From Deltaproteobacteria bacterium (GTDB taxonomy: Bacteria; Desulfobacterota; Desulfomonilia; UBA1062): a stretch of DNA of 64,000 nucleotides. Shown piece by piece: positions 2,131 to 58,220 of this stretch (positions are counted from its first letter, which is position 1; each line of letters opens with the position of its first letter). The stretch lies in the NCBI GenBank assembly GCA_011046135.1, contig DSBG01000092.1, positions 11,034 to 75,033 on the forward strand, in the 5' to 3' direction. Both the position numbers and the translations under genes were made by a program. Under the pieces are notes generated by a model. The model was not told where the DNA came from, searched no databases, and saw only the letters and a program-made list of their open reading frames with translations.

Positions 2131-2142
2131 GAATGCTCGCCG

Positions 2143-3153: not shown

Positions 3154-3702
3154 GGGGTCATGTCCTCCAGGATCCAGGAAACTGCCTCGGGCAGATCCCG
3201 TGCAATAAAATCAGCGCTGTGGTTGTGCATATCCATAACACTTGTTCTCAGGAGAATCCCTGTTCCCCCGACCCGGTGGATGGTTTCAATATCGTCGGGC
3301 TTGTCGCCTATCATATAGCATGCCCCGAGGTCCATGCCAAACTCTTGCGCTGCCTTCAAAAGCATTCCGGGCTGTGGTTTCCGGCACGAGCAGTGCATGC
3401 GATACGCGCTCACCGTACCATCGGGGTGGTGCGGGCAATAATAGATCCCGTCGATGCGTGCCCCCTGTTTGAGAAGAAGGCTAAGAAGCCGACCATGAAT
3501 GTCTGCGAGGATGGCTTCATCAAGAAATCCCCGCGCGATTCCCGACTGGTTCGTGGTCACGATGACCGGGATCCCCCGCTCATTGAGCATTTTCAGGGCA
3601 CGGGGTACCCCGGGAAGGATCTCGATCCCGTCGGGGTCTCTCAGGTAGTTCTTGTCCCGGATGATGGTATCATCCCTGTCGAGAAATACGCCTGTTCCTG
3701 AC
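3150..3702 (-). CDS. gmhB: D-glycero-D-manno-heptose 1,7-bisphosphate phosphatase (HAD family, GmhB-like)
   Basis: It carries an FLDRDDTI motif resembling the HAD DxDGT motif I, plus a C-terminal Cys cluster. The likely start is a TTG at 3702 preceded by AAGGAGA; the track ORF extends further 5' into lpxK. Confidence 0.7.
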
Positions 3703-4632: not shown

Positions 4633-6388
4633 TGGAGAACTGAAGGCTGTACAGCCTTGTGTAATGGCCGTTTCGTGCGAGGAGGTTTTCATGGGTGCCC
4701 TGTTCCACGATGCTGCCCTGGGAGAGAACGATGATCCAATCCGCGTTCACGATCGTGGAGAGACGATGTGCAATCACCAGCGAGGTTCTGCCCTTCATGA
4801 GCTTGTCCATGGCTGACTGGACCTCACGTTCAGATTCCGTGTCCAGCGACGAGGTCGCCTCGTCCAGGATGAGGATGGGAGCGTCCTTGATGATGGCCCT
4901 GGCGATACAGATCCGCTGTTTCTGGCCTCCTGAAAGCCGCACCCCTGATTCGCCGATGACGGTATCGTAGCCCTGTTCCATGTCCTCGATGAATTCATGG
5001 GCATTGGCAGACCGTGCGGCTTGGATGATTTCATCCATTGAGGCGGTCTCTAATCCATAGGCGATGTTTGCCTTCACCGTGTCGTTGAACAGGATCATTT
5101 CCTGGGTTACCATGGCGATGTTGTCTCGCAGCGAGGCCAGCGTCACCTCCCTGATGTCGGTTCCATTCACCAGGATGTTCCCGCTGGTGACGTCGAAGAG
5201 TCTCGGCAGGAGATTGGCGATGGTGGTCTTCCCGGAGCCGGATTCTCCCACCAAGGCCACCTGCATCCCGGCTTTTGCCTGGAACGTGATTCCCTTGAGG
5301 GCATACTCCTCACACCCGTGATACCTGAACCACACGTCCTGAAATTCGAAATCGCCTCGTATCCTGCCGATTTTTTCCGCGCCCGGTTTCTCGGTGATCT
5401 CCGGGGTGGTATCGAGCACGGAGAAAATTCTCTTCGCCGCAGCGATTCCCTCCTGGATCTCGATATTCACGTTGTTGAGCTTTCGAATCGGTGAGTAGAG
5501 CAGGCCAAGCCCCAGGATGAACGATCCGAACTCACCCGGCGTGATGGACCCACTGATCACCTTCATCCCCCCGATCCAGAGGATGCTGGCAAAGGCAAGG
5601 CCGCCGATGAGTTCTATCAGGGGTCCGGAGATGGCACGAATGGCGATTCTCCTCATCCAGTTGCGATAGTACCTTCGATTTTCAGCGGAGAACCTCGTTT
5701 TCTCGTAGTTCTCCATGTTGTACGCCTTCACGATCCTGATGCCGCTGATGCCTTCGTCCAGGATACTCATGACATCTCCCATGACCTTCATGCTCCTGGT
5801 GGAGTAGCGCTTGAGTTTCTGTCCGAACCTGATAATGGGGTAGATCACCAGGGGAAAGACCACCATGGAGATGAGGGCGAGCTGCCAGTCCCGGTAGAAC
5901 ACCACGAACACGAGTCCTACCAGCGTGAAGGATTCCCTGATGAACCCGGTGATGGCGTTGGTGACAGAAGACTGGACCATGTTGACATCGTTGGTGATCC
6001 GGGAGATGAGGACTCCTGTGGGCGTTTTGAGAAAAAACGGCATGGACAGGGTCTGTATATGTGCGTAGAGCTGATCCCGCAGGTCCATGATGATGCGCTG
6101 GCCCACATCGGCAACGTAGTAGTAGCTGAAGTAATCACTGACACCCCTGATGAGGTAGATGGCGATGATCACGAGCGGGAAGACCTTCAGCATGAAGAGA
6201 TCCTGCTCGATCAGGATGTCATCCACCACGTATTTGAACAGCAGTGCCAGCAGCCCTGTTGTCCCGGATATGAAGAGCGTCAGAAACAGGGAAAAAGCCA
6301 GCTTGTGCCAGTAGGGCCTGATGTATCCCAGGAGCCTTCTGTAGATCCCGGTGTCCTTGATGGTTAGTGAAGCATCTCGCAGATCCAC
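4625..6388 (-). CDS. msbA: lipid A export ABC transporter, fused permease/ATPase (MsbA)
   Basis: A 587-aa protein with six N-terminal transmembrane segments, Walker A GESGSGKT, the ABC signature LSGGQKQR and Walker B ILILDEATS. It lies between lpxK and lpxB. Confidence 0.85.
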   Translation of the reverse strand: MDLRDASLTIKDTGIYRRLLGYIRPYWHKLAFSLFLTLFISGTTGLLALLFKYVVDDILIEQDLFMLKVFPLVIIAIYLIRGVSDYFSYYYVADVGQRIIMDLRDQLYAHIQTLSMPFFLKTPTGVLISRITNDVNMVQSSVTNAITGFIRESFTLVGLVFVVFYRDWQLALISMVVFPLVIYPIIRFGQKLKRYSTRSMKVMGDVMSILDEGISGIRIVKAYNMENYEKTRFSAENRRYYRNWMRRIAIRAISGPLIELIGGLAFASILWIGGMKVISGSITPGEFGSFILGLGLLYSPIRKLNNVNIEIQEGIAAAKRIFSVLDTTPEITEKPGAEKIGRIRGDFEFQDVWFRYHGCEEYALKGITFQAKAGMQVALVGESGSGKTTIANLLPRLFDVTSGNILVNGTDIREVTLASLRDNIAMVTQEMILFNDTVKANIAYGLETASMDEIIQAARSANAHEFIEDMEQGYDTVIGESGVRLSGGQKQRICIARAIIKDAPILILDEATSSLDTESEREVQSAMDKLMKGRTSLVIAHRLSTIVNADWIIVLSQGSIVEQGTHENLLARNGHYTRLYSLQFSNE

Positions 6389-7449
6389 TGTGCAACTCCT
6401 TGTGATGCCTTTTTCGTACCAAGAAGATCCCGCATGTGGGAAAAGGCGTTCCTTGTTTGGCAGAAAAGAGATCTATCCTGGATAAACCGCAGGAGGAACT
6501 CGGCCAGGCGGGTTCCGGTGAACTCGTGCTGGATGAGTTCGGGAACGATGCGTTTCCCAGAGATGATGTTCGGCATGCCGATGTGGGGTATCTTCACGAA
6601 GGAACTGGCAATGCAGTAGTTGATACGTGATGTTCTGTAGCAGATAATTTCGGGAATGCCTCGGACTGCCAGTTCGAGGGTCGATGTGCCGGATTTCACC
6701 ATGGCAAGGTCAACCTCGGGCAGTTCGCCGGTGAGCTCGATATCACCATCTACCAGCTTCTCGATGTCTCCGGGTTCCAGCCCAGGTGCCACAGGGAGGA
6801 GCCAGGAGATCTCGGGATGCTTTTCTCCCACGATGCGTTTCGCTTCCAGCATCACGGGAAGGATCTGTGAAATTTCGTGTGATCTGCTTCCGGGAAGCAG
6901 GGCAATACGCTTCGGAGGCCAGGAGACTTCTGCCATTTCACGTGCCAATTCCATAATGGGGTGGCCCACGTAGCGCGCGTTTACACCAAAGGAGCGGAAG
7001 AATTCCTCTTCGAAGGGAAAGATGACTGCAAGGCCATTGGTGATCTTGGAAAGGTGTTCAGCCCGGGACCGCCGCCAGGCCCAGGCCTGTGGAGCGATGT
7101 AGTAGAGCGTCCTGAACCCGTGCGCATGAGCCCTGCGGGCAATCCTCATGTTGAAGTCCGGCAGGTCGAGCAGGACCACGATGTCGGGGTTTCTCTGCTT
7201 CATGAGGTGCGTTAGCCCCTGGTAGACTTTCAGAATCCTTCCCATTTTAGGGATCACGTCAGAAAAGCCCATAACAGAGAGTTCATCCATGGAATAGACG
7301 CACTCCATGCCCGAGGCTTCCATCGCAGGACCACCCATGCCGAAAAAAGCGACACCATCATCAAGGGTCCTCACGGCCCTTATGACCTGTGAAGCGTGTC
7401 TGTCGGCGCTTGGTTCCCCTGCTACCATGAGGATGTTCTTCATAGTCAT
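6364..7449 (-). CDS. lpxB: lipid-A-disaccharide synthase
   Basis: A 361-aa GT19-family protein (MVAGEPSADRHA...YYIAPQAWAWR). Confidence 0.9.
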   Translation of the reverse strand: MTMKNILMVAGEPSADRHASQVIRAVRTLDDGVAFFGMGGPAMEASGMECVYSMDELSVMGFSDVIPKMGRILKVYQGLTHLMKQRNPDIVVLLDLPDFNMRIARRAHAHGFRTLYYIAPQAWAWRRSRAEHLSKITNGLAVIFPFEEEFFRSFGVNARYVGHPIMELAREMAEVSWPPKRIALLPGSRSHEISQILPVMLEAKRIVGEKHPEISWLLPVAPGLEPGDIEKLVDGDIELTGELPEVDLAMVKSGTSTLELAVRGIPEIICYRTSRINYCIASSFVKIPHIGMPNIISGKRIVPELIQHEFTGTRLAEFLLRFIQDRSLFCQTRNAFSHMRDLLGTKKASQGVAQWICEMLH

Positions 7450-7453
7450 CGCC

Positions 7454-8374
7454 CTAGGGCACGACCATCGAATCTTTTACCCGATACGCCATTTCTACGG
7501 CCTTGAGTCCGGCTTCCCCGTCCACTTCGACCTGGCTGCCCTCTCGCACCGCATCCACGAACGATCGGAGCTCAGCAGCCAGGGCGTCGGAATCATCAAT
7601 CTTAAGGTGGGTGTGGGTGATCTCTCTGTGCTCAGTGAGGGTGTAGATATCCACGGCGGACTGTGCAAAATCAATGGAGATATACGAGTCGCTCTGGAAA
7701 ATTCTGATCTTGCGCATGATCTCAGCACTGACCCTGCTTGCGGTGATATTGGCGATACACCCCGAGGCAAACTTGATCCTTGCATTGGCTATGTCGACCG
7801 AGCCCGTGAGGACCGGGACTCCAACGGATTCCACGGAGGTAACCTCTGAGGTGACCAGAGAGAGAATGATGTCGAGGTCATGGATCATGATGTCCAGGAT
7901 CACATCCACGTCCGCCCCGCGCTGCCTGAAGGGGCTTATCCGGTGAGCCTCGATGAACATGGGGTGCGTGATACTCGACTGAAGGTGCTTCAGGGCGGGG
8001 TTGAACCGCTCCAGGTGGCCGATCTGGAGCATGGCGGAGCCTCTGTGTGCTGCATCGATGAGAGAGACAGCGTCTTCGATGCGTGCCGCGATTGGTTTTT
8101 CCAGCAGGACGGCGATCCCCCGTTCCAGAAACGGCATCGCCACCTCGGCATGAGCGCTCGTGGGTACTGCGATGCTGACTGCATCGAGACGGTCAATGAT
8201 CCCCTCTGCTGAGGTGTAGGCTTGAGTGCCTGTTTCCCGGGAAACAAGGACCGCACGATCTTGATCGATATCCACCACCCCAAGGAGTTCGACATCCTCC
8301 ATGGCGGCGTACTTAAGGGCGTGGAATCTGCCGAGATACCCGACGCCGATCACGGCGGCCTTGAGGGGATTCAT
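7454..8374 (-). CDS. Gfo/Idh/MocA-family NAD(P)-dependent oxidoreductase (GnnA-like UDP-GlcNAc 3-dehydrogenase candidate)
   Basis: It has an N-terminal Rossmann motif AVIGVGYLGRFH and the family EKP motif (LLEKPIA). Its stop and start overlap lpxA by 4 nt (ATGA), and it sits between lpxA and lpxB. Confidence 0.75.
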   Translation of the reverse strand: MNPLKAAVIGVGYLGRFHALKYAAMEDVELLGVVDIDQDRAVLVSRETGTQAYTSAEGIIDRLDAVSIAVPTSAHAEVAMPFLERGIAVLLEKPIAARIEDAVSLIDAAHRGSAMLQIGHLERFNPALKHLQSSITHPMFIEAHRISPFRQRGADVDVILDIMIHDLDIILSLVTSEVTSVESVGVPVLTGSVDIANARIKFASGCIANITASRVSAEIMRKIRIFQSDSYISIDFAQSAVDIYTLTEHREITHTHLKIDDSDALAAELRSFVDAVREGSQVEVDGEAGLKAVEMAYRVKDSMVVP

Positions 8375-9144
8375 CTCGCGATACCCCGGGTCGAGGTGGA
8401 GAGGAACTCCACCAGCGCGCGGATCTCTTCCTCGGTGATCTCTTGTCTCAGCGCCTCGATAGCGTCTTTCAGGAGCAGTCCCTGCTTGAAGATGGTGCGG
8501 TAGGCCTTCTCGACCCGCTTGATCTGATCTGGTCTGAAACCGTTTCTCTTCAGTCCGATGGAGTTGACCCCGAACAGACGGGCACGGTCTCCTGCGGCGC
8601 GGGCATAGGGGACGATATCGAGACTTACCATGGATCCGCCCCCGATAATGGCATAGGCCCCGATGCGGGTAAACTGATGGATTGCGGAGAGGCCGCCGAT
8701 GATGGCATGATCCTGGATCTTCACATGGCCGGCCAGCGTCGCGAGATTGCCCATGACCACATGATTGCCGATGACGCAGTCATGGGCCACGTGGCAATAA
8801 GCCATGATGAGGTTGTTGTTCCCGATGGACGTGACTCCCCTGTCCTTAACGGTCCCCCGGTTGATGGTAACGAACTCCCGGATGGTGTTGTTTTCACCGA
8901 TGACCAGCCGTGTGTCCTCGCCACGATACGAGTGGTCCTGCGGGGGGGTTCCGATGCTCGCATATCCGGTGAAGGTGCAATTTCCTCCGATCTCGGCAGG
9001 ACCCCGAATCATGCAGTAGGGACCGATGGTGGTCTTCGCTCCGATGGATGTCCTCTCCCCGATCGTTGCATAGGGGCCGACGACCACATCGTCTGCAAGC
9101 TCAGCCCCATCGGCGATTAGGGCGGTGGGATCAATCTTTGCCAA
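8371..9144 (-). CDS. lpxA: acyl-ACP:UDP-N-acetylglucosamine O-acyltransferase
   Basis: Left-handed beta-helix hexapeptide repeats and an LpxA-specific C-terminal helical domain. The likely start is a TTG at 9144, 10 nt after AAGGAGG; the track ORF's extra N-terminal 99 aa overlap lpxD out of frame. Confidence 0.85.
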   Translation of the reverse strand: MAKIDPTALIADGAELADDVVVGPYATIGERTSIGAKTTIGPYCMIRGPAEIGGNCTFTGYASIGTPPQDHSYRGEDTRLVIGENNTIREFVTINRGTVKDRGVTSIGNNNLIMAYCHVAHDCVIGNHVVMGNLATLAGHVKIQDHAIIGGLSAIHQFTRIGAYAIIGGGSMVSLDIVPYARAAGDRARLFGVNSIGLKRNGFRPDQIKRVEKAYRTIFKQGLLLKDAIEALRQEITEEEIRALVEFLSTSTRGIAR

Positions 9145-10141
9145 TGGATTCGAGCCTCCTTTCCAGAGAGCGTATGCGCTTGAGCATTTCGGGAAGGTCC
9201 TTGTACACCTTCTGTACCCGGAGCCAGTGTCGGTGATCCATTGCGGGGAACCCCGAGACCACGCTCCCGGCAGCGAGATCCGATGCGATTCCAGCCCTGG
9301 CTGCTGCAACACAGCCGTCACCGATGGTGATATGTCCCCCGATTCCGCACTGGCCGGCAAGAACGACGTTTGACCCGATCTGTGCACTGCCCGAGATCCC
9401 GGTCTGAGAGACGATGATGGTGTGTTCACCGATGACAACATTGTGACCCACCTGGATGAGATTGTCCATCTTCACGCCGCTGCCGATCCTGGTGCTGGTG
9501 AGCGCTGCACGGTCGATCGTGCAGTTGCTCCCGATCTCGACATGGTCGCCGATGATCACGATCCCCTTCTGGGGGATCTTCACATGGCGGGACCCGTCCC
9601 AGACAAAGCCGAATCCGTCCGATCCAATGACGACGCCGCTGTGGATAATGCAGTTGCTGCCCAGGGTACATCCGTCATAGATCACGACATTCGGATAACA
9701 GACAGTCTGATCGCCGATGGTGACGTTTGCACCGAGATAGCACCCGGGATAGATGATGCACCCCTTCGATACCCTGGCACCGGCACCAACGTTCACGTGA
9801 GGGTAGATGCATGCCCCCGCATCGACAGAAGCATCGGGATGGATACAGGCCAGGGGGGATATTCCCGGCTCAGGGGTTTCATCGGGGTATACGAGAGACA
9901 CGACGCGGGCGAAATAGAGGTAGGGGTCCTTCGTGATGATCTGGGGAATGGCAGTTTCGATCTCGTGGGCGACAATGATCGCTCCTGCACGAGAGGTCTT
10001 CACCCTGTCCCTGTACTTCGGGTTTGCAAGAAACGTGATCTCGTCTGAGGATGCCTCCTCAAGGGTGGATGCTCCGGAGACAACCCGATCCTCTCCCTTG
10101 AGAATTCCGCCGAGTTCTGTAACGAGATCACTCAGGCGCAT
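9131..10141 (-). CDS. lpxD: UDP-3-O-acylglucosamine N-acyltransferase
   Basis: A 336-aa protein with an N-terminal uridine-binding domain, hexapeptide repeats and a C-terminal helix, typical of LpxD. Confidence 0.9.
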   Translation of the reverse strand: MRLSDLVTELGGILKGEDRVVSGASTLEEASSDEITFLANPKYRDRVKTSRAGAIIVAHEIETAIPQIITKDPYLYFARVVSLVYPDETPEPGISPLACIHPDASVDAGACIYPHVNVGAGARVSKGCIIYPGCYLGANVTIGDQTVCYPNVVIYDGCTLGSNCIIHSGVVIGSDGFGFVWDGSRHVKIPQKGIVIIGDHVEIGSNCTIDRAALTSTRIGSGVKMDNLIQVGHNVVIGEHTIIVSQTGISGSAQIGSNVVLAGQCGIGGHITIGDGCVAAARAGIASDLAAGSVVSGFPAMDHRHWLRVQKVYKDLPEMLKRIRSLERRLESIGKD

Positions 10142-21646: not shown

Positions 21647-21654
21647 GGGACATC

Positions 21655-25187: not shown

Positions 25188-25188
25188 T

Positions 25189-49734: not shown

Positions 49735-49921
49735 GCAGTGCTCTGGAAAACAACGGCTCACTAGCAGGAATCGGCACCTGGTTCCCAGTTTCTGTTTTTC
49801 GTGTCAACCTGTGGTGGTTTGTGGATACCGGATGATTTTTCTGCTGTTGAGAATACTCATTACGAGAGCGTGGACTCTGGGCAGCATACAGAAACTCTTT
49901 TCCCGGCCCGCCTCGAAGAAA

Positions 49922-51589
49922 TCATGGGGTTCCACGTTTGAGGCGTCTCTTGTTCGAATATGCGGTGATACGTGAGATCAGTTCTTTTCGTCTGGCTTCC
50001 AGGGAGGTGTTCCCCGAGAGGTAGAGCTGGAGGAAGGAGCATCTGATTTCCTCGGGCAGGACTCTTTCCAGGGACACGTTGAGATAACTCAGGTTTTTTG
50101 CGATGAGGTACAGACTTGGATAGCGTACCCGGTGCAATCTGTCCAGGTCGATGAGATAGATTTGATCATCGCCTATGAGTAGATTCTCGGCCTTGAAATC
50201 CGTGTGGACGATACCCATTTCATGGATACCCCTGACAAATTGTGCAATTCTCGGGAGAGAAGTTCCTACACACGACGTATCCTTGAGGTATGTTGCAAGG
50301 TCAGGGGCATGGACGTATCTCGTTGCCAGATACGATGAGAGGAGAACTCCACAGAACCTCTTTTCGCAGGAGAACAGGACATCGGGGGTGGCAATCCCGA
50401 GCTCCTCGAGCATGAGTGATGCCTCGAACGCCCGTCGTGCTCTGCTCTTCCTGAAGAGATTCTTCAGACTGTCTCTGATTCCCTTGTAGTTGTACCTTTT
50501 CAAGAAGATAGTCTCTGCTCCGAGCTGACCGCACTTGACAAGGGAGGTTTTTGAACGGTTCACCACCGTGGTGCTGAAGGTCTCCATGAAACGATCAGGA
50601 TCGTGAACCTCGGCAGGGATTGATGTTTTGGGCTTGAGATACCAGGTATACCTATTTGCGAAGTGGAACCCATGTTTTCTCGGGCACGGTTCCATTCCCC
50701 AGCTCCGGGGCTGTCCGAGGAGATGCCACAGGAGAAGGGAACATGATTTTCTGAGTCTGTCCTTGAAGGCCGGGTTGTATGCCATGAAGAGGTGTCCCAG
50801 GCTTTCGAAGAAGAGCTTCGCTATCGTGAGTCCATACAGAGCGAAATACTGACATGATCCCTTGTGCTTGCGGAAAAATCGGAAGAGGGAACGGTGAAAT
50901 TCCACATTTCTCCTGAGATTGGCTTTTTTCGCGGTGACACCTTGGTGGTGCACGACCGATAGGTGGGGGAGGTGCCACACCTCGAAACCTCTGTCACGGG
51001 CACGTTTGCAGAGATCTGTCTCTTCAAGGTAGAAAAAAAAGCCTTCATCCAGCATCCCGATGAGATCGAAGAGCTGTCGCTTGATCATCATACATGCGCC
51101 GATCACGGAGGGCACTTCAACAGACCGGGTGAATCCCGAACGCTTGCTGGGATACAGGCGTGGGAACAGGATTTTGAGCAAGGATTTGTTTACCACCTGT
51201 GTGAAGAGGTTCGGGATCACATCCACGGAATTTTGGAGCCTTCCATCAGGGAAGACGAGTTGAGGACCGCAGATCATGCAGCGTGGATTCTCCGAAAGAA
51301 AATTTTCCATGGGGGTGATACAGTCGGAGGAAAGGACGGCATCGGAATTCAGGAGCAAAACTACATCTCCCTTTGCCCGTATGAGTCCTCGGTTCACGGC
51401 ACGCGCGAAACCCAAGTTCCTGCCGTTTTCGATGATGGTCACGGAAACATCATTGTCTGGCAGGAGAGCATCCGGAGCATTGTTTACCAGAATAATCTCG
51501 TAGGCACACCTCACGTGGGTTTTCAGCGAGGAAAGGCACTGGTCAAGAAGCTCGTCATGACCCATGGTAACGATGATGATGCTGACCAT
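49922..51589 (-). CDS. fusion protein: family-2 glycosyltransferase (N-terminal) plus a Kdo/WaaP-family lipopolysaccharide kinase domain (C-terminal)
   Basis: A GT-A fold (SIIIVTMGHDE…LLNSDAV…) is followed by a kinase domain with …FLKRYNY… and the catalytic HTDFKAENLLI…IDLDR motifs. Confidence 0.7.
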   Translation of the reverse strand: MVSIIIVTMGHDELLDQCLSSLKTHVRCAYEIILVNNAPDALLPDNDVSVTIIENGRNLGFARAVNRGLIRAKGDVVLLLNSDAVLSSDCITPMENFLSENPRCMICGPQLVFPDGRLQNSVDVIPNLFTQVVNKSLLKILFPRLYPSKRSGFTRSVEVPSVIGACMMIKRQLFDLIGMLDEGFFFYLEETDLCKRARDRGFEVWHLPHLSVVHHQGVTAKKANLRRNVEFHRSLFRFFRKHKGSCQYFALYGLTIAKLFFESLGHLFMAYNPAFKDRLRKSCSLLLWHLLGQPRSWGMEPCPRKHGFHFANRYTWYLKPKTSIPAEVHDPDRFMETFSTTVVNRSKTSLVKCGQLGAETIFLKRYNYKGIRDSLKNLFRKSRARRAFEASLMLEELGIATPDVLFSCEKRFCGVLLSSYLATRYVHAPDLATYLKDTSCVGTSLPRIAQFVRGIHEMGIVHTDFKAENLLIGDDQIYLIDLDRLHRVRYPSLYLIAKNLSYLNVSLERVLPEEIRCSFLQLYLSGNTSLEARRKELISRITAYSNKRRLKRGTP

Positions 51590-51799
51590 CTGGCTCACCT
51601 TTAAAGAGAAATGCCCGGTTCTGCGGGTGAACGAAGAACAGCGCCGAGATCTCGGAATCATGTTCAGGGCGTATGCCGTGGCACGCTCCTCTGGTTCTGG
51701 TGATCGGCCTGCACTTCAAATTCTTACCTATACGATATTTTTTGGGATGCCAAGTGAAAGAAAGGACCTTGGATTTTGACATGGGATCAAGTTGTGGTA

Positions 51800-52744
51800 A
51801 TGAAGTTGTCCATGGACGTGACTATCATCGGTGCTGCACGGAGAAACAACGGTATCGGGGAATTCATCGCCAGATACTTTCATGCCCGGGGAGCTTCCAT
51901 AACTGCAGTGCTCGGGACCTCTGAGCAGACCACCTCGGCGGCTGCAGATCACCTGCGACGGTATGGAATCAAGGCTTCGGCATATACAGACTTCTCCCGC
52001 ATGATTTCTGAGCAGAAGCCCGATGCCGTGGTGATCGCCTCTCCCGGACCGACCCACGTGTCGTACCTGCAGCAGTGTGTTGATGCCGGAGTTCATATCT
52101 TTTGCGAAAAGCCCATAATCTCCCCTGGTGCCGAGGTACATGAGCGCTTTCTCACCGATCTCTTTGATCAGGCCTCCTCCCGTGGGATCAGGATCGCCAT
52201 GAATTCCCAGTGGCCATTTTCCCTGCCGTTTTATGATGCACTCTGTGGAAGATTTTCTCCAGGTGAGATCGAGAGCTTTTTTATCCACCTTTCTCCCCTG
52301 ATGCGAGGACGGGCGATGATTCCCGAGTCTCTGCCCCATGCTCTAAGCCTGATGCACGCACGTGTGGGCCCGGGTAAGATAGAAGATCTCAGCCTGATGG
52401 AAACAGACGCAGGGCTTCTGATCAAATTTTTCTACGCCTCTCTTTGGGGCCGGTGTTCAGTCGTGGTGGAACTGGAACAGGAGGAGTATCAACCGAGGAG
52501 CTTCTCATACGGATTCAACGGGAGGATTGTCCACCGGAACATTGAACCTTCTACATACACTATTTCCTTGACGTACCGCGACAAAACCCTGAAAATACCG
52601 GATCCTCTCGAGCTATCAGTGGGTGATTTCATAACTGCGTTGAATACAGGTTCACAGCCCATGATTGATACGGAGCATATTCTTGAAACGTCTTCCCTGC
52701 TGCAGGATATCTACAGGGAATATACGATGGAGACCAAGGGGTAA
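51800..52744 (+). CDS. Gfo/Idh/MocA-family NAD(P)-dependent sugar oxidoreductase
   Basis: A Rossmann N-terminus (VTIIGAARRNNGIGEF) and the EKP motif (FCEKPIISP). Its stop is 2 nt before the radical-SAM start. Confidence 0.7.
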   Translation: MKLSMDVTIIGAARRNNGIGEFIARYFHARGASITAVLGTSEQTTSAAADHLRRYGIKASAYTDFSRMISEQKPDAVVIASPGPTHVSYLQQCVDAGVHIFCEKPIISPGAEVHERFLTDLFDQASSRGIRIAMNSQWPFSLPFYDALCGRFSPGEIESFFIHLSPLMRGRAMIPESLPHALSLMHARVGPGKIEDLSLMETDAGLLIKFFYASLWGRCSVVVELEQEEYQPRSFSYGFNGRIVHRNIEPSTYTISLTYRDKTLKIPDPLELSVGDFITALNTGSQPMIDTEHILETSSLLQDIYREYTMETKG

Positions 52745-52746
52745 GT

Positions 52747-53964
52747 ATGGAACAACTCAAAGAGAGAGAGCACGATTTCAGCGCAAAACTCAGGCAGGCT
52801 TCAGTCATCGAATCTCTCAAGGAGTACATCTCCTGGCAGAGAAAGGTGCGGTCATCATCGGGACAGCCGGTGTTTCCACGACGTGGACCGATCTCGGTCA
52901 ACCTGGATCTTACAACGGCATGTAACTTCTCCTGCCCCCACTGTGTGGATTCACGGATGCTCAACACCGGTGATTATCTTGATCTCGACACGATCAAGCG
53001 GAGCATCGAGACACTGCAGAACAACGGGCTGCTCTCGGTGATTCTCATCGGCGGTGGAGAACCGACCATTCATAAGAACTTCGAAGAGCTTGTGAGGTTC
53101 CTTTCCCGGCAGGGCCTCCAGATCGGCATTGCCACCAACGGCTCCCGTCTCGAGAGGGTCGCATCCGTTGCGGATGCGTTCAAGGAAGGTGATTGGCTGA
53201 GGCTGTCCCTCGATGCGGCTCGCGAGAGTACTTTTTTCAAGTCCCACCGACCACGAGGCCGAATCAGCCTCGAGAAGATTCTCGGTGATGCTTCTGAGAT
53301 CAAGAATGCCAACAGTGCCCTCTCCCTGGGATACTCCTTCGTGATCGTGTGGAAAGGCATTCTCATCAATGGTTATGAACTCTGCGAAAATGTTCAGGAG
53401 ATTCCCGAAGCGGTGAGGTTGGCACGCGAGAACCACTTCGACTATATTTCCTTCAAACCGTGTCTCCTGCGCCTTGATGGATCTCTGAAGGAGTCGATCT
53501 TCAGTCAGCCCGATGAAGAGCATGAAACACAGGTCATTGATGAAATTACACGGAATCTGGAAAAAGCCAGGCATGAGGCATCTGACGGTGTGAAGATTCT
53601 CGAGAGCATCAATCTTGATGCGATGCTGAACAGGAAGGTCCATGAACTCAAGGTTCAACCTCAGGTGTGCCACAGTCAGTTTTTCCGGACAGTGATCGCT
53701 CCGTCCGGTATTTTCCACTGTCCCGCGCTGCGAGGAGTTGATCTGGGAAGAATCGGGAGCGAAGATGGGTATAAATCTGCGGGGAACTTTGAGCAGACGC
53801 AGGCCAACCTCGAACGCTCCCTGAGGAACTTTGATGCAGCGAAGGAATGTGATGTGGTGGTATGTTTCTACCATCACGTGAACTGGTGGATCGAGAAGTT
53901 CATCACCTCTCGAAAGAGCGTCCGGTCCCTGACCAAGGTCGAGGACGATAATTTCTTTCTGTAG
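52747..53964 (+). CDS. radical SAM protein, possibly with a C-terminal auxiliary Cys motif, function unknown
   Basis: The motif CNFSCPHC (CxxxCxxC) follows a roughly 50-aa N-terminal extension. A glycine-rich SAM motif ILIGGGEPT is present. Additional Cys residues lie near the C-terminus (…CHSQFF…HCPAL…CDVVVC…). Confidence 0.75.
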   Translation: MEQLKEREHDFSAKLRQASVIESLKEYISWQRKVRSSSGQPVFPRRGPISVNLDLTTACNFSCPHCVDSRMLNTGDYLDLDTIKRSIETLQNNGLLSVILIGGGEPTIHKNFEELVRFLSRQGLQIGIATNGSRLERVASVADAFKEGDWLRLSLDAARESTFFKSHRPRGRISLEKILGDASEIKNANSALSLGYSFVIVWKGILINGYELCENVQEIPEAVRLARENHFDYISFKPCLLRLDGSLKESIFSQPDEEHETQVIDEITRNLEKARHEASDGVKILESINLDAMLNRKVHELKVQPQVCHSQFFRTVIAPSGIFHCPALRGVDLGRIGSEDGYKSAGNFEQTQANLERSLRNFDAAKECDVVVCFYHHVNWWIEKFITSRKSVRSLTKVEDDNFFL

Positions 53965-53965
53965 C

Positions 53966-55006
53966 ATGTCCATGGAATGCACGAAGATAGGGGTAATTCA
54001 TCTCAATCAGATCGGCGATCTCCTTTTCTCTCTGCCGCTACTTGCTTCGCTCCGTGAACGATTCCCCCGCGCCCGGATTGATTCCATTCTGAGGCCCGCG
54101 CTCAAGGATCTCCTGGAAGACTCCCCTTTCGTCGATCGTTTCATTGTGCGCGATCAGGGAAGCGTGCCATGGTTCAGGCTTGCCAGGGCTCTCAGGAGAG
54201 AGCGTTACGATCTTGTGCTCTGCCTTTCAAGATCAGAAGGAGCCCTCACACTGGCCGCAGCAATCAACGCGAGGGTTTCTGCCGGCTTTGCCACGTTTCC
54301 CTGGGACATGTGTCTGGATGTGAAGGAAACCCTCGAGGGTCACAACAGCTGGTACAATAATGCGAAGCTTCTCAGGCTGCTGGAGATCATTCCAAGCCGG
54401 GATAGCTATGTGGGGCTCTTGCGGGTGAGTGACTCGGCATATCGGGGTGATCTGCCGGAGAGATTTGTCGTGATCTCGCCCGGTGCGTCCAAGAGACGGC
54501 TCATAAAAGCGTGGGACGAGAAGAAATTTGCAGAACTCATGGTAGCGTTACGCGAGCACGCTTCTCTCACTCCGGTTATCGTGGGAGGTAACGACTCAAG
54601 GGCTTGCGCTGCTCTCATCAGTTCACACTACCGGGAAATCAGAGGATTCTCACGCGCATCAGAAGAACTGCTCGACCTCACCGGAGCAATGTCACTGAGG
54701 GAACTCTGCTCTCTCCTCACACGTGCAAGGTTGTTTGTGGGGATAGATTCAGGGGTGATGCACCTTTCTTCGGCCCTTGACATACCGGTTGTGGGGCTCT
54801 TCGGCCCCACAGACCCGTTCTATGTCGGGCCTCAAAATACAAAGAGCATCGTGGTAAAACAGGAGGTCTCCTGCTCTCCCTGCTACATCAGAACACCCTG
54901 CAGCCACAGGGAGTGCATGGAGAATCTTCCGGTTTCCAGTGTCTTGGATGCCTGCAGGACTCTTTTGGAAAACAGGGAGGAAGAGCACGTCACAAGGCAT
55001 GCATGA
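53966..55006 (+). CDS. ADP-heptose:LPS heptosyltransferase (GT9 family)
   Basis: The GT9 N-terminus IGVIHLNQIGDLLFSLPLLASLR and a C-terminal GxDSGxMHLA motif. Confidence 0.8.
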   Translation: MSMECTKIGVIHLNQIGDLLFSLPLLASLRERFPRARIDSILRPALKDLLEDSPFVDRFIVRDQGSVPWFRLARALRRERYDLVLCLSRSEGALTLAAAINARVSAGFATFPWDMCLDVKETLEGHNSWYNNAKLLRLLEIIPSRDSYVGLLRVSDSAYRGDLPERFVVISPGASKRRLIKAWDEKKFAELMVALREHASLTPVIVGGNDSRACAALISSHYREIRGFSRASEELLDLTGAMSLRELCSLLTRARLFVGIDSGVMHLSSALDIPVVGLFGPTDPFYVGPQNTKSIVVKQEVSCSPCYIRTPCSHRECMENLPVSSVLDACRTLLENREEEHVTRHA

Positions 55007-55030
55007 GTGAATCGGTGATGACACAAGAAC

Positions 55031-56536
55031 GTGTCACAGCGTGGGAATCCGTTGTGCTCAAACTCCGGGCAACATCCCGCGCGAGGGAGAGAGGCCATTA
55101 CCATCTACGAAGTCATTCGAAGGAACTATCCGGATCACCGCATGAAGCTCTTTCAGGAGCGGTCATCGCGGAAGATCGTTGTTCTCGAGAAGCAGGGCAG
55201 CACAGAGTATTTCTGTAAGGTTTACGACGCAAGCGACTTCCTGTCCAGGATGAGGAACAGATTCTTCCCGAAGACCCTCAAAGAGGCGGACATGCTCGGT
55301 CGCTTAAAAGAAAAAGGTCTCCCGGTACCCGAGATTCAGGGTCACATGCTGCATGCTGGAGCAAGTGCACTTATTACCAGGGCCATTGAACCAGCTCAAT
55401 CCCTCTGGGAGGTGGATCCTTCCATCCGGGGGACAATCATGCTGGAGATGGCTGTCCTCCTGCTCAAGCACGGGTTTTCTCACCGCGACATGCATCCGGG
55501 CAACATCATTCTCGACAGTTCCGGCAGAGCGTTCCTCATCGATGCCTATGAAATTTCCGCCCATGGCCGCATCGGGAAAAGGGAGATTATTCGTCTATTT
55601 GCCCAGATTTTCAATGCATCCAATATCTCACCTGCTGATCTTGAGAAACATCTCGTTGGGTTTCAGCACATCGACGATTCTGCCACGTTGGCTGCCAAGA
55701 TCGTGCGGTCGGCCCTGAGAACAAAGAGGAGATACGTGAGGAAGCGGGTGAAACGGTCCATGAGAGAAGGAAGTTTCTCCACGGTTCTGAAAACAGGGAA
55801 TTTCTCGGCATGGATCCGCAGAGGGGAGGCCATCGATGTGGAAAGCATCATTGCCCGGCACGAAGCAAATCTGGCAAACGGTATCGATATTCTGAAGGTC
55901 CAGGACAAGACGCAACTGAGCAGGGTGGACCAGTACTGCGTGAAATCGTACCGGAAATCCTGGCCCTTTGGAGAGCCATATGCCAGAAGATCCTGGAAGG
56001 GGCTCCTCACACTTGTCTTCAATGGGATTAAGACCGCCGGTCCGGTTGCGTTGGTTGTTTTCAAAGATGGGAGGAGTTCACTCATTACCTCTGTCCTGGA
56101 TCACCAAGATCTCGATCAATTTATCGGTGAATCATACAGAACACTGGACATGCACGAACGGATCGGAATTGCCCGCGCGTTCGGTTCCGTGATTGGGACC
56201 CTTCACTCCCGCAGGATCTACCATGCTGATCTCAAGGCGTGTAACATCAAGATTGACCCGGAAACACGTGAGTTCTTTTTTCTGGACACGGATCGAGTAG
56301 GACAACAGAGGCACCTTTCCAAGGACAGGGTGTACGAAAATCTGGTTCAGATCAATACGAGCATCCCGAGGTTCGTAAGTCGTGGCGAGAGAATGTCATT
56401 CATCAATGCCTATGCGGCAAGAACCGGACAGAACCCCAAGGAGGTCTTCATCCGGGTATGGGAACTCTCCCGCACAAGGGGCATCCTATACTGTTCTTCA
56501 GAGGGAGATCGGTTCGAAGGGTGGATCGAGAAATAA
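55031..56536 (+). CDS. tandem double Kdo/WaaP-family LPS (heptose/Kdo) kinase
   Basis: Two kinase cores with the catalytic loops HRDMHPGNIIL…IDAYE and YHADLKACNIKI…LDTDR. The start is a GTG and is uncertain. Confidence 0.65.
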   Translation: MSQRGNPLCSNSGQHPARGREAITIYEVIRRNYPDHRMKLFQERSSRKIVVLEKQGSTEYFCKVYDASDFLSRMRNRFFPKTLKEADMLGRLKEKGLPVPEIQGHMLHAGASALITRAIEPAQSLWEVDPSIRGTIMLEMAVLLLKHGFSHRDMHPGNIILDSSGRAFLIDAYEISAHGRIGKREIIRLFAQIFNASNISPADLEKHLVGFQHIDDSATLAAKIVRSALRTKRRYVRKRVKRSMREGSFSTVLKTGNFSAWIRRGEAIDVESIIARHEANLANGIDILKVQDKTQLSRVDQYCVKSYRKSWPFGEPYARRSWKGLLTLVFNGIKTAGPVALVVFKDGRSSLITSVLDHQDLDQFIGESYRTLDMHERIGIARAFGSVIGTLHSRRIYHADLKACNIKIDPETREFFFLDTDRVGQQRHLSKDRVYENLVQINTSIPRFVSRGERMSFINAYAARTGQNPKEVFIRVWELSRTRGILYCSSEGDRFEGWIEK

Positions 56537-56554
56537 GCCAGGCAGGACACACGC

Positions 56555-57538
56555 CTACTTCGCAAGAACTGCATTGAGTTTTTCCAGCACATCGGATGCA
56601 GTGATGGATTTCATGCAGACAGGATCGTCGCACACGCGCCTGTTGCATGGTGAACAGTGAAGATCCTTTCGAATCACTTCCCCGACAAAAGGTCCAGTCC
56701 GCCTTGGATCGGCAGGACCAAAGAGTGCGATGACTTTTTTCCCCAGGGCTACCGCCAGATGCATGGGCCCGGTGTCACAGCTGATTACTGCGTGTGATCC
56801 TGCAAGAACCTCTTTGAGTTCGAGGAGGGATGTTTTTCCGGTAAGGTTGATAACCTCCTGTCCTGCCATGGTCTCGATCTCATGAGAAAACTGCACGTCT
56901 TCTCGGCCGCCGGTCAGGACACAGGGGATGCCGTATCGTTGTACGCATTCGCGCACAAGGCTGGAGAACCCTTCGGCGGTCCAGCGGTTTGCCGGTTTTG
57001 TGGCTCCGATGTTGAGAACCAGGTACTCTCGGGGCAGAGCATGCGATGGTATTCCCGTAACGGGAATCTCCCAGCGGATATCATTATCAGGAACACCGAG
57101 GTGTTTCGCGAACTCAAGATACTGATACACCATGTGAGCGGAAGGATCGCTTTTCGGGATGCGTTCAAAGGGCATGATCCAGGTCATTTCTTTACACCGC
57201 TGCCTGTCGAAACCGATTCGTCTGGTGCTCCGGGAGATCATGCACATGAGGGAAGATTTCGCGGTGCGTTGGAGGTCAAGGGAAATGTCCCAGTACCCTT
57301 TTGAGAGCTGGATAATGATCTTTGGAACAGATAGAGGAAGCCGATTCTTATCAAAGAGGATAACAGAATCAACAGAGGGGTGACCTGATACGAGGGGTAA
57401 GCTCAGAGGCTCGACGAGCCAGTGTATCCGGGCCCCCAGATGGATCTTCAGGGTAACTGCCAGTGGCAGGCTGTTCACCACATCTCCCATGGCACCGAGT
57501 TTCACAAAGAGGATATCCATTTGTTTCTGATAAAACAT
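56555..57538 (-). CDS. ADP-heptose:LPS heptosyltransferase (GT9 family), second copy
   Basis: ILFVKLGAMGDVVNSLPLAVTLK at the N-terminus and GPMHLAVALGKKVIALFGPADP near the C-terminus. Confidence 0.8.
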   Translation of the reverse strand: MFYQKQMDILFVKLGAMGDVVNSLPLAVTLKIHLGARIHWLVEPLSLPLVSGHPSVDSVILFDKNRLPLSVPKIIIQLSKGYWDISLDLQRTAKSSLMCMISRSTRRIGFDRQRCKEMTWIMPFERIPKSDPSAHMVYQYLEFAKHLGVPDNDIRWEIPVTGIPSHALPREYLVLNIGATKPANRWTAEGFSSLVRECVQRYGIPCVLTGGREDVQFSHEIETMAGQEVINLTGKTSLLELKEVLAGSHAVISCDTGPMHLAVALGKKVIALFGPADPRRTGPFVGEVIRKDLHCSPCNRRVCDDPVCMKSITASDVLEKLNAVLAK

Positions 57539-57667
57539 AATCCTCGCTCAGGCAAGGACTCGAAGAGCAGCATGAGTGATTTCTGAGCCGAAGAACAGCT
57601 TTTCAGTACTGGAGGGGTGGCTGCGTACGTGGTGCAATCTCAGGGAATGGTGCGTGAAAACTCCCCC

Positions 57668-57697: not shown

Positions 57698-57729
57698 CTT
57701 CTTACTGACAGGTCCCAGGGAAGTGAATA

Positions 57730-58218: not shown

Positions 58219-58220
58219 GG

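What the first reader, a model, noticed from the sequence alone, without database searches (positions are those of the whole stretch)
49922..57538. LPS-core-type locus with three Kdo/WaaP-family kinase domains and two GT9 heptosyltransferases
Five co-localised genes encode a GT2 fused to a kinase, two heptosyltransferases and a tandem double kinase. The locus lacks typical outer-core or O-antigen genes. This suggests a compact, heavily phosphorylated heptose/Kdo inner core.
Basis: partly seen in the sequence, partly recalled or inferred. Interest (0 to 1): 0.55.

Follow-up and report, generated by a model that had tools for sequence, protein, structure and literature searches.

The report
LPS-core locus with radical-SAM heptose tailoring

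Summary
Window 49922-57538 holds a GT2 fused to a Kdo/WaaP-type kinase, two GT9 glycosyltransferases and a tandem double kinase. All three kinase domains keep their catalytic residues.

The interval holds six genes, not five. The two unnamed genes are a Gfo/Idh/MocA oxidoreductase (about 51800-52744) and a radical SAM enzyme (52747-53964). With the downstream GT9 (53966-55006) they are the evolutionary core of the locus.
- Gfo lies directly upstream of the rSAM in 73 of 75 genome loci and 58 of 67 metagenome loci.
- A GT9 lies directly downstream in 59 of 74 and 31 of 60.
- Kinase genes are detected near the rSAM in only 27 of 80 and 9 of 80.

Other family members are fused to Gfo, or to an HldD-like ADP-heptose 6-epimerase inside a gmhA/hldA/hldC/gmhB cluster. 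Others are paired with an aldo-keto reductase or an omega-aminotransferase.

Best reading: an LPS inner-core locus in which the rSAM makes an oxo-ADP-heptose, Gfo reduces it (net deoxygenation or epimerisation), GT9a transfers it, and the kinases phosphorylate the core. The chemistry is inferred, not shown. The same window holds a lipid A cluster with a GmhB-like gene. No waaA was found.

The parts
49922..51661 (-). Fusion protein (579 aa): an N-terminal GT2 glycosyltransferase and a C-terminal Kdo/WaaP-family kinase, transcribed divergently from the operon.
   Evidence: Pfam PF00535 (63 bits) and PF06293 (49 bits). GT2 motifs N105-x-D107 and E213-E214-T-D216, and kinase residues K388, D488, K490, N493, D505 and D507, are invariant in 15 orthologues. 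In locus L087 the GT2 and a single Kdo kinase are separate neighbouring genes.
51800..52744 (+). Gfo/Idh/MocA-family NAD(P)-dependent sugar oxidoreductase, the partner of the radical SAM enzyme. The ORF opens at TTG 51776. The likely start is ATG 51800 or ATG 51812.
   Evidence: PF01408, 60 bits. The 'CEKP' motif is visible in the sequence. The best solved relatives are inositol and sugar dehydrogenases. It lies directly upstream of the rSAM on the same strand in 73 of 75 genome loci and 58 of 67 metagenome loci. It is fused to the rSAM in P0181, P0182, P0190 and P0195. Homologue alignments begin at residues 12-13 of the ORF.
52747..53964 (+). Radical SAM enzyme (405 aa) of an unnamed family, with a CX3CX2C motif and four further invariant Cys. 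Predicted to act on ADP-heptose.
   Evidence: PF04055, 71 bits. No NCBIfam model reaches its cut-off. C59, C63, C66, C308, C325, C368 and C373 are invariant in 32 diverged members. AF2 model pLDDT 86. The best fold match is DesII (TM 0.58), followed by SkfB, SuiB, BlsE, viperin and MoaA. It is 55-82% identical across the closest listed Desulfobacterota homologues. 426 GTDB species encode a relative. 77 clusters at 50% identity match with E below 1e-30.
53966..55006 (+). GT9a: a GT9 (heptosyltransferase-family) glycosyltransferase, proposed to be the dedicated transferase for the tailored heptose.
   Evidence: PF01075, 108 bits. Best NCBIfam hits are heptosyltransferase II and III, both below cut-off. 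It keeps the N-terminal 'GD' and the 'DSGxMH' motifs seen in WaaF and 3TOV. A GT9 lies directly downstream of the rSAM in 59 of 74 genome loci and 31 of 60 metagenome loci. It starts 1 nt after the rSAM stop codon.
55031..56536 (+). Tandem double Kdo/WaaP-type kinase: two protein-kinase-like domains in one chain. The deposited annotation starts at ATG 55142. Homologues support the longer GTG 55031 form.
   Evidence: PF06293, 60.9 bits, two stretches. Catalytic residues are conserved in both halves. AF2 pLDDT 93, with tandem-kinase fold matches. It is 100% identical to a MAG protein of a 'Deltaproteobacteria bacterium', ENN34_06610.
56555..57538 (-). GT9b: a WaaC-like GT9 glycosyltransferase and candidate heptosyltransferase I, convergent with the operon.
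   Evidence: PF01075, 122 bits. The best NCBIfam hit is heptosyltransferase I (118.9 bits, cut-off 185.3). It aligns over residues 7-284 with E. coli WaaC residues 1-290. It is only 26% identical to GT9a.
3150..3755 (-). GmhB-like HAD phosphatase inside the lipid A cluster. This is supporting context: an ADP-heptose pathway step.
   Evidence: The best NCBIfam hit is D-glycero-beta-D-manno-heptose 1,7-bisphosphate 7-phosphatase (158.5 bits, cut-off 178).
1165..10141 (-). Lipid A biosynthesis and export cluster: two LpxL-type acyltransferases, a GmhB-like gene, LpxK, MsbA, LpxB, a Gfo-type dehydrogenase, LpxA and LpxD. This is context showing that the organism makes LPS.
   Evidence: Pfam hits. 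Skp, BamA and LolCD follow.

Best explanation
The interval is an LPS inner-core (cell-surface glycolipid) assembly locus of an uncultured anaerobic Desulfomonilia-type deltaproteobacterium. It has two functional layers.

Layer 1, conserved across Desulfobacterota: the operon Gfo oxidoreductase, radical SAM enzyme, GT9a.
- The radical SAM enzyme has a CX3CX2C cluster plus a probable four-Cys auxiliary cluster.
- I propose that it abstracts a hydrogen atom from the sugar of ADP-heptose and converts a carbinol or diol into a carbonyl, by dehydratase/lyase or dehydrogenase chemistry.
- The NAD(P)-dependent Gfo enzyme then reduces that carbonyl. The result is a tailored ADP-heptose, most likely a deoxy-heptose and less likely an epimer.
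- GT9a transfers this sugar onto the growing core.

Layer 2, specific to this lineage:
- GT9b (WaaC-like) adds a heptose to the Kdo-lipid A acceptor.
- The GT2 domain adds a further sugar.
- The three Kdo/WaaP-type kinase domains phosphorylate core sugars.

Shown: the gene content, the intact catalytic motifs, the conserved gene order, the fusions and the co-location with ADP-heptose genes. Inferred: the substrate (ADP-heptose), the order of the steps, the chemical outcome, and the acceptors of both GT9s and of the kinases.
For: - Domain content and intact motifs.
- The six-gene module is conserved at 42-82% identity in other MAGs, with the GT2-kinase and GT9b genes in different positions around a fixed Gfo-rSAM-GT9a-kinase core.
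- Census: Gfo directly upstream in 73 of 75 genome loci and 58 of 67 metagenome loci. GT9 directly downstream in 59 of 74 and 31 of 60.
- Fusions of the kind that link functional partners: Gfo-rSAM in P0181, P0182, P0190 and P0195. The P0181 fusion is again followed by a GT9.
- An HldD-like SDR is fused to the rSAM in P0185: TIGR02197 ADP-glyceromanno-heptose 6-epimerase, 264 bits, full length, cut-off 274.6. It is seen on two contigs from two different sequencing datasets. It sits in a cluster with GmhA-HldC, HldA, GmhB, a GT9 and an aldo-keto reductase immediately downstream.
- HldC directly follows the triad in L047, L049 and L076, and lies shortly after it in L117 and L167. HldD lies directly upstream in L141. 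Bona fide HldC (197 bits, above its cut-off) and HldD (381 bits, above its cut-off) lie within about 8 kb in a complete genome, L085.
- More distant members (41-49% identical to the window rSAM) have an omega-aminotransferase in place of Gfo, followed by the rSAM and a GT9. Partners of five kinds occur: Gfo, aldo-keto reductase, SDR, aminotransferase and (in P0199) a Ham1/RdgB NTP pyrophosphatase. Four of the five process carbonyl groups, which points to an oxo-sugar product.
- The best fold match is DesII, a radical SAM lyase/dehydrogenase acting on a TDP-sugar. BlsE, viperin and MoaA also act on nucleotide-linked substrates.
- Precedent for a radical SAM dehydratase with an NADPH reductase partner: AprD4/AprD3 (PMC5461906).
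- LPS context: a lipid A cluster and a GmhB-like gene in the same window.
- Precedent for several inner-core kinases in one operon: P. aeruginosa WaaP, WapP, WapQ and PA5006 (PMC3147165, abstract listed).
Against: - No biochemical data exist for any member of the family. Substrate and product rest on gene neighbourhood and fusions.
- ADP-heptose pathway genes lie near the rSAM in only 12 of 160 loci.
- A GT9 is absent directly downstream in 15 of 74 genome loci and 29 of 60 metagenome loci.
- Both GT9s, the HldD-like domain of P0185 and the window's GmhB-like protein score below NCBIfam's curated cut-offs.
- Fold similarity to DesII is modest (TM 0.58, 14% identity). Peptide-modifying rSAM enzymes (SkfB, SuiB) score about as well.
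- No waaA (Kdo transferase) was found in the window.
- The auxiliary cluster is inferred from four invariant Cys only.
- L088 probably belongs to an F420-using organism. The module is therefore not restricted to LPS.
- One fusion partner, the Ham1/RdgB NTP pyrophosphatase of P0199, does not fit the carbonyl-processing pattern.
Confidence: 0.55

Rival explanations
1. An ordinary, compact LPS inner-core locus exactly: two heptosyltransferases and three core kinases giving a heavily phosphorylated heptose/Kdo core. The oxidoreductase and radical SAM genes would be unrelated passengers.
For: GT9, GT2 and Kdo-kinase domains with intact catalytic residues. Lipid A genes in the same window. Several core kinases in one operon are known from P. 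aeruginosa (PMC3147165).
Against: - The 'passengers' are the most conserved genes of the locus: the rSAM is 55-82% identical among its closest listed homologues, against 35-64% for the double kinase.
- They are translationally coupled to GT9a, with gaps of 2 nt and 1 nt.
- They keep their position in 73 of 75 genome loci and are fused to each other in other organisms.
- Kinases are detected in only 27 of 80 genome loci.
Confidence: 0.1
2. The locus builds a glycoconjugate other than LPS, for example a heptosylated protein, a capsule or another glycolipid. The GT9 enzymes would be non-LPS transferases and the kinases would act on that glycan or on proteins.
For: - Both GT9s fall below the NCBIfam heptosyltransferase I, II and III cut-offs.
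- The triad stands alone, away from other core genes, in the complete genome L085.
- Relatives occur in an O-antigen-like cluster with a Wzt ABC transporter (L093) and in a cluster of a probable F420-using organism (L088).
- The closest single-domain fold matches of the kinase include WbdD, an O-antigen-terminating kinase, and Bud32 and RIO protein kinases.
Against: - GT9b aligns over its full length with WaaC.
- The match to the protein-heptosylating TibC/Aah family is marginal (21.7 bits, cut-off 200).
- The kinases pass the Pfam threshold for the LPS kinase family.
- In L087 the triad sits in a classical core-type cluster of GT9, GT2, GT4 and Kdo kinases.
- The organism makes lipid A and needs core genes somewhere.
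Confidence: 0.15
3. The rSAM and Gfo enzymes act on something other than the ADP-heptose donor. Candidates are the already transferred core sugar on lipid A, CMP-Kdo or Kdo, or a free nucleotide by viperin-like chemistry. Alternatively the pair is a plain dehydrogenase/epimerase couple with no deoxygenation.
For: - The best NCBIfam similarities are to viperin and MoaA, which act on NTPs.
- A Ham1/RdgB NTP pyrophosphatase is fused to the rSAM in P0199.
- Four-Cys auxiliary clusters are typical of rSAM dehydrogenases such as BtrN and anSME (my own knowledge).
- Most loci have no ADP-heptose genes nearby.
Against: - The HldD-like fusion and the gmhA/hldA/hldC/gmhB cluster in L088.
- HldC or HldD adjacent to the pair in further loci.
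- Tight coupling to a GT9, whose family donor is ADP-heptose.
- A dehydrogenase followed by a reductase would be futile, or would duplicate what an NAD-dependent epimerase does alone. Canonical HldD is present in L085.
Confidence: 0.2

Closest known systems
Enterobacterial and Pseudomonas waa (rfa) inner-core loci: WaaC, WaaF and WaaQ heptosyltransferases with WaaP, WaaY, WapP and WapQ kinases
   Same: GT9 transferases next to Kdo/WaaP-family kinases. Several kinases in one cluster, as in P. aeruginosa (PMC3147165). An organism with a lipid A pathway. A glycosyltransferase and a kinase are functionally linked. In E. coli the order WaaG, WaaP, WaaQ, WaaY is sequential (my own knowledge).
   Different: - No waaA, waaG or waaL in the locus.
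- The kinases occur as a tandem double kinase and as a GT2-kinase fusion.
- The GT9s are below the equivalog cut-offs.
- A radical SAM enzyme and a Gfo oxidoreductase sit inside the operon. No described waa locus that I found has this.
AprD4/AprD3: radical SAM 1,2-diol dehydratase with an NADPH-dependent reductase (C3' deoxygenation in apramycin and tobramycin biosynthesis)
   Same: A radical SAM enzyme paired with a nicotinamide-dependent reductase that acts on a sugar. The net result is deoxygenation through a keto intermediate (PMC5461906).
   Different: - The AprD4 substrate is a free pseudodisaccharide in antibiotic biosynthesis, not a nucleotide sugar for a cell-envelope glycan.
- The partner here belongs to the Gfo/Idh/MocA family.
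DesII, with its aminotransferase DesI (TDP-desosamine pathway), and BlsE
   Same: Radical SAM enzymes acting on nucleotide-linked sugars. DesII is the best structural match. The aminotransferase-rSAM pairing in L092 and L093 recalls DesI/DesII, where an amino group is installed and then removed by a radical step (my own knowledge).
   Different: - Only 13-15% identity and TM 0.55-0.58 to DesII.
- This family has four extra invariant Cys.
- The aminotransferase partner is class III (omega-type), not DegT/DesI-type.
- The donor nucleotide is predicted to be ADP, not TDP or cytosine.
GDP-6-deoxy-heptose pathways of Campylobacter, Yersinia and Burkholderia (DmhA/DmhB-type SDR dehydratase and reductase)
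   Same: They make deoxy- or epimerised heptoses for surface glycans from a nucleotide-activated heptose.
   Different: - Those pathways use GDP-D-glycero-alpha-D-manno-heptose and cofactor-bound SDR 4,6-dehydratases, with no radical chemistry (my own knowledge; PMC9978623 names one GDP-linked heptose intermediate in C. jejuni).
- Here the context is ADP-heptose, GT9 and a radical SAM enzyme.

Membership tests
Kdo/WaaP lipopolysaccharide kinase family (PF06293) | The profile match exceeds Pfam's gathering score | tested here: met
   GT2-kinase 49.1 bits and double kinase 60.9 bits, against a cut-off of 21.3.
Kdo/WaaP lipopolysaccharide kinase family (PF06293) | Protein-kinase-like catalytic residues: beta3 Lys, catalytic-loop Asp and Asn, and metal-binding Asp | tested here: met
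   K388, D488, N493 and D505/D507 are invariant in 15 orthologues. K26, D116, N121 and D134, and K268, D363, N368 and D382/D384, are conserved in 22 homologues. Two homologues (P0050, P0051) have a degenerate N-terminal domain loop.
Kdo/WaaP lipopolysaccharide kinase family (PF06293) | Phosphorylates heptose or Kdo of the LPS inner core | not testable with these tools
   NCBIfam's KdkA model scores 50-52 bits against a cut-off of 142. The substrate is unknown.
LPS heptosyltransferases WaaC, WaaF and WaaQ (GT9) | GT9 fold and profile (PF01075) | tested here: met
   108 and 122 bits against a cut-off of 22. Both align to the solved WaaC, WaaF and 3TOV chains, and conserved Gly-Asp and D(S/T)GxxH motifs are visible.
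LPS heptosyltransferases WaaC, WaaF and WaaQ (GT9) | Reaches the curated equivalog score of heptosyltransferase I, II or III | tested here: not met
   GT9a: 111.1 (II, cut-off 134.6) and 108.4 (III, cut-off 170.2). GT9b: 118.9 (I, cut-off 185.3).
LPS inner-core biosynthesis locus | The host makes lipid A and has an outer membrane | tested here: met
   LpxL x2, LpxK, MsbA, LpxB, LpxA, LpxD, Skp, BamA, LolCD, FlgH and FlgI in the same window.
LPS inner-core biosynthesis locus | Kdo transferase WaaA and the ADP-heptose pathway are present in the genome | tested here: inconclusive
   No waaA among the ORFs I scanned with Pfam across the 64-kb window. Those were selected ORFs, mostly of 150 aa or more, so the scan is not exhaustive. 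A GmhB-like gene is present but scores below its cut-off. The rest of the genome was not available.
Radical SAM superfamily (PF04055) | CX3CX2C cluster motif and a profile match | tested here: met
   C59-X3-C63-X2-C66 is invariant. 71.4 bits against a cut-off of 29.5. The GGGEP motif is invariant.
SPASM/twitch radical SAM enzymes (auxiliary Fe-S cluster) | A C-terminal Cys-rich domain binding an auxiliary cluster | tested here: inconclusive
   Four further invariant Cys (C308, C325, C368, C373) in 32 members. There is no Pfam SPASM hit, and I could not inspect model coordinates.
Viperin, MoaA, DesII and BlsE families | Reaches the family's curated score | tested here: not met
   Prokaryotic viperin 59.1 bits (cut-off 180). 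MoaA 56.9 bits (cut-off 284). BlsE and DesII show structural similarity only (TM 0.55-0.58).
Gfo/Idh/MocA oxidoreductases | N-terminal NAD(P)-binding Rossmann domain with the EKP motif | tested here: met
   PF01408, 60 bits against a cut-off of 24. 'FCEKP' at residues 109-113 of the ORF. The C-terminal domain is not recognised by Pfam.
AprD4/AprD3-type radical dehydratase and reductase pair | Homology to AprD4, and 1,2-diol dehydratase activity | not tested
   No AprD4 sequence or structure was available in the tools used. The analogy is by logic only (PMC5461906).

The most novel reading that the evidence does not exclude
The Gfo-rSAM-GT9 triad defines a previously undescribed pathway that is widespread in anaerobes. 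A radical SAM enzyme tailors ADP-heptose into a new activated heptose for the LPS core: a deoxy-heptose, or an amino-deoxy-heptose in the aminotransferase variants. I found no report of a radical SAM enzyme acting on ADP-heptose or in LPS core biosynthesis. The family would be modular, with interchangeable enzymes that finish the carbonyl: Gfo, aldo-keto reductase, HldD-like SDR or omega-aminotransferase.
Probability: 0.45. Interest if true: 0.72.

Novelty: new variant of a known kind. Interest (0 to 1): 0.58.

Why it matters
As far as I know, LPS inner-core chemistry outside Proteobacteria and in strict anaerobes is little charted. ADP-heptose is also an innate-immune agonist (reference list of PMC9978623).

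If the radical SAM enzyme really remodels ADP-heptose, three things follow.
- A new reaction class is added to heptose and LPS biosynthesis.
- A new heptose should be looked for in the LPS of sulfate reducers and syntrophs.
- A three-gene cassette becomes available for in vitro testing and for glyco-engineering.

The tandem kinase and the GT2-kinase fusion also show how core glycosylation and phosphorylation can be physically coupled.

If the radical SAM prediction fails, what remains is an ordinary LPS-core locus.

Tried and rejected
- An exact-sequence look-up of the 501-aa double kinase found nothing. The deposited gene model is the shorter 464-aa form.
- Promoter and terminator scans of 49500-58400 gave no more sites than shuffled sequence. 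No statement on transcription units rests on them.
- Sequence searches of the PDB with the rSAM, alone and as a profile, matched only the generic radical SAM core.
- Cluster look-ups of ten distant family members returned no organism names. I could not name a cultured host.
- Literature searches combining radical SAM with ADP-heptose, heptosyltransferase or LPS core found no paper describing such a system. The library does not cover subscription journals.
- I considered that the rSAM-Gfo pair replaces HldD. I rejected this because a bona fide HldD is encoded about 4 kb from the triad in L085 and an HldD-like domain is fused to the rSAM in P0185.
- I considered a link to mycofactocin or arsenosugar systems, prompted by weak GT2 and rSAM hits. 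I rejected it because all scores are far below the cut-offs and the partner genes are absent.

Full report
**1. What is there**

The interval 49922-57538 contains six ORFs with significant family matches.

| Coordinates | Strand | Length | Identity |
|---|---|---|---|
| 49922-51661 | - | 579 aa | GT2 domain fused to a Kdo/WaaP-type kinase domain |
| 51776-52744 (probable start 51800 or 51812) | + | 322 aa (ORF) | Gfo/Idh/MocA oxidoreductase |
| 52747-53964 | + | 405 aa | radical SAM protein |
| 53966-55006 | + | 346 aa | GT9 glycosyltransferase (GT9a) |
| 55031-56536 | + | 501 aa | two Kdo/WaaP-like kinase domains in tandem |
| 56555-57538 | - | 327 aa | second GT9 (GT9b) |

It counted five genes, named four, and did not recognise the oxidoreductase or the radical SAM gene.

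**2.

All three kinase domains keep the residues needed for phosphotransfer.
- In the GT2-kinase fusion, K388, D488, K490, N493, D505 and D507 are invariant in 15 orthologues.
- In the double kinase (22 homologues, numbered from the ATG at 55142), the N-terminal domain keeps K26 and D134 in every sequence, and D116, H118, G120 and N121 in at least 90%.
- The C-terminal domain keeps K268, H361, D363, K365, N368, D382 and D384 in every sequence.

An AlphaFold model of the double kinase (pLDDT 93) aligns over its whole length with tandem-kinase structures such as the EGFR kinase-domain duplication and JAK. Each half resembles Bud32/PRPK, WbdD and RIO2.

Both GT9 proteins are clear GT9 members. 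GT9b aligns end to end with E. coli WaaC. Neither reaches NCBIfam's curated scores for heptosyltransferase I, II or III. The two are only 26% identical to each other.

**3. Host and surroundings**

The double kinase is identical to a protein of a metagenome-assembled 'Deltaproteobacteria bacterium'. The nearest relatives are labelled Desulfomonilia or Thermodesulfobacteriota.

The same window carries:
- a lipid A cluster: two LpxL-type acyltransferases, a GmhB-like phosphatase, LpxK, MsbA, LpxB, a Gfo-type dehydrogenase, LpxA and LpxD;
- Skp, BamA and LolCD;
- flagellar L-ring and P-ring genes.

The organism is therefore a diderm that makes lipid A, and it probably makes ADP-heptose. I found no waaA among the ORFs I scanned.

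**4. Comparative genomics changes the picture**

The radical SAM protein is the best-conserved gene of the locus. It is 55-82% identical among its closest listed homologues, against 35-64% for the double kinase. 426 GTDB species encode a relative.

| Position relative to the rSAM | 80 genome loci | 80 metagenome loci |
|---|---|---|
| Gfo directly upstream, same strand | 73 of 75 | 58 of 67 |
| GT9 directly downstream | 59 of 74 | 31 of 60 |
| Kinase gene detected nearby | 27 of 80 | 9 of 80 |

Denominators below 80 exclude loci cut by a contig end. In the window the three genes are separated by 2 nt and 1 nt. The full six-gene set recurs in the closest clade. There the GT2-kinase and GT9b genes take different positions, and the locus often lies next to a response-regulator/HD-domain pair and mltG. 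In L087 the GT2 and a single Kdo kinase are separate genes, next to two methyltransferases, a GT4 and a double kinase. That is a classical core-type cluster.

**5. What the radical SAM enzyme probably acts on**

An exhaustive profile search found 77 clusters (at 50% identity) with E below 1e-30. Several are fusion proteins.
- Gfo-rSAM: P0181, P0182, P0190 and P0195. The P0181 fusion is again followed by a GT9.
- HldD-like SDR-rSAM: P0185. The SDR half matches TIGR02197, ADP-glyceromanno-heptose 6-epimerase, at 264 bits over its full length against a cut-off of 274.6.
- Ham1/RdgB-rSAM: P0199.

The HldD-rSAM fusion occurs on two contigs from two different sequencing datasets. It lies in a cluster with a GmhA-HldC fusion, HldA, GmhB, a GT9, a sugar aminotransferase and an aldo-keto reductase immediately downstream.

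Other loci link the pair to ADP-heptose genes.
- HldC directly follows the triad in L047, L049 and L076, and lies shortly after it in L117 and L167.
- HldD directly precedes Gfo-rSAM in L141.
- HldA and HldD, or HldA and HldC, lie nearby in L143, L168 and L172.
- A complete genome (L085) has bona fide HldC and HldD within about 8 kb.

The pair is therefore not a substitute for HldD. It performs an additional step.

**6. What chemistry**

More distant family members (41-49% identical to the window rSAM) have an omega-type class III aminotransferase in the position of Gfo, again followed by the rSAM and a GT9. The partners seen are Gfo, aldo-keto reductase, SDR, aminotransferase and, in one fusion, a Ham1/RdgB NTP pyrophosphatase. 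Four of the five are enzymes that process a carbonyl. This suggests that the rSAM generates an oxo-sugar, or in the aminotransferase variants possibly consumes its amino derivative.

The AlphaFold model (pLDDT 86) is closest to DesII, a radical SAM lyase/dehydrogenase acting on a TDP-sugar (TM 0.58). BlsE, viperin and MoaA follow. The peptide maturases SkfB and SuiB score similarly.

Seven Cys are invariant in 32 diverged members: the CX3CX2C triad plus C308, C325, C368 and C373. This is consistent with a second, fully ligated Fe-S cluster.

The best precedent for this logic is AprD4/AprD3, a radical SAM diol dehydratase with an NADPH reductase that together deoxygenate a sugar (PMC5461906).

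I therefore favour the sequence: oxo-ADP-heptose formed by radical dehydration, reduction by Gfo, and transfer by GT9a. An oxidation and reduction that nets an epimerisation is a less likely alternative. An NAD-dependent enzyme could do that alone, and HldD already exists in these genomes.

**7. The rest of the locus**

These assignments are inferred by family analogy.
- GT9b is WaaC-like and probably adds a heptose to Kdo-lipid A.
- The GT2 domain adds another sugar.
- The three kinase domains phosphorylate core sugars.

Several inner-core kinases in one operon are known in P. aeruginosa (PMC3147165). The tandem and GT-fused architectures are unusual, but they are variations on that theme.

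**8. Comparison and novelty**

The locus works like a waa inner-core locus and is best filed as a new variant of that kind. The radical SAM family is not a member of any curated family I could test. Viperin, MoaA and the other models in the NCBIfam list are all far below their cut-offs, and DesII and BlsE match by fold only. Four literature searches found no description of a radical SAM enzyme linked to ADP-heptose, GT9 or LPS core. That library omits most subscription journals.

**9. Confidence**

| Claim | Confidence |
|---|---|
| The genes, domains and motifs are as described | above 0.95 |
| Gfo, rSAM and GT9a form one functional unit | about 0.85 |
| The locus serves LPS core or a closely related envelope glycan | about 0.8 |
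| The rSAM substrate is ADP-heptose or a direct derivative | about 0.6 |
| The net outcome is deoxygenation | about 0.35 |

The overall confidence in the combined explanation is 0.55.

Noticed in passing
window 7454-8374 (-): A second Gfo/Idh/MocA gene sits between lpxB and lpxA. Its best NCBIfam hit is UDP-N-acetylglucosamine 3-dehydrogenase (212 bits, cut-off 450). This is GnnA-like and hints at a lipid A based on 2,3-diamino-glucose.
   Followed up: no
window 55031-55142: The deposited gene model of the double kinase (464 aa, ATG 55142) looks truncated at the N-terminus. Homologues align from residues 11-25 of the ORF that starts at GTG 55031.
   Followed up: partly
P0050 and P0051 (homologues of window 55031-56536): In two homologues the N-terminal kinase domain has lost the catalytic-loop motif (KDLAARD or KELVARD in place of D-x-H-x-G-N). 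One lineage seems to be drifting toward a pseudokinase-kinase arrangement.
   Followed up: no
L088:1-17559: This cluster combines the ADP-heptose pathway (GmhA-HldC, HldA, GmhB) with the HldD-rSAM fusion and an aldo-keto reductase. It also holds a BlsE-like rSAM, a SPASM rSAM, an F420-dependent LLM oxidoreductase, a DegT aminotransferase and a GT9. It looks like a pathway for a heavily tailored heptose in an F420-using organism.
   Followed up: partly
L090:624-2762 (P0199): A Ham1/RdgB non-canonical NTP pyrophosphatase is fused to the rSAM through a Pro-rich linker. It was seen in two samples on a 3-kb contig. The reason for the pairing is unexplained.
   Followed up: partly
L092:4871-8457 and L093:2904-6005: A variant cassette: omega-aminotransferase, rSAM, GT9. 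In L093 it sits in an O-antigen-like cluster with a Wzt ABC transporter, a pyruvyl transferase, NeuB and a B12-binding rSAM.
   Followed up: partly
window 58221-61411 (-): A response regulator with an HD_5 (HD-GYP-like) domain, a second response regulator and MltG lie next to the core locus. The same genes accompany it in more than 20 related genomes.
   Followed up: no
window 57640-58224 (-) and 57730-58218 (+): Two overlapping ORFs on opposite strands. The + strand product gives only weak, below-threshold matches to mostly coiled-coil families. The coding strand is ambiguous, because related loci annotate a small gene here in either orientation.
   Followed up: no
window 16648-17214 (+) and 45209-45787 (+): Two AMMECR1-family paralogues in one 64-kb window.
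   Followed up: no
window 20057-26964 (+): A flagellar basal-body and hook-associated cluster (flgF/G-like, flgA, flgH, flgI, flgN, flgK). It includes the outer-membrane L-ring, which confirms a diderm envelope.
   Followed up: no
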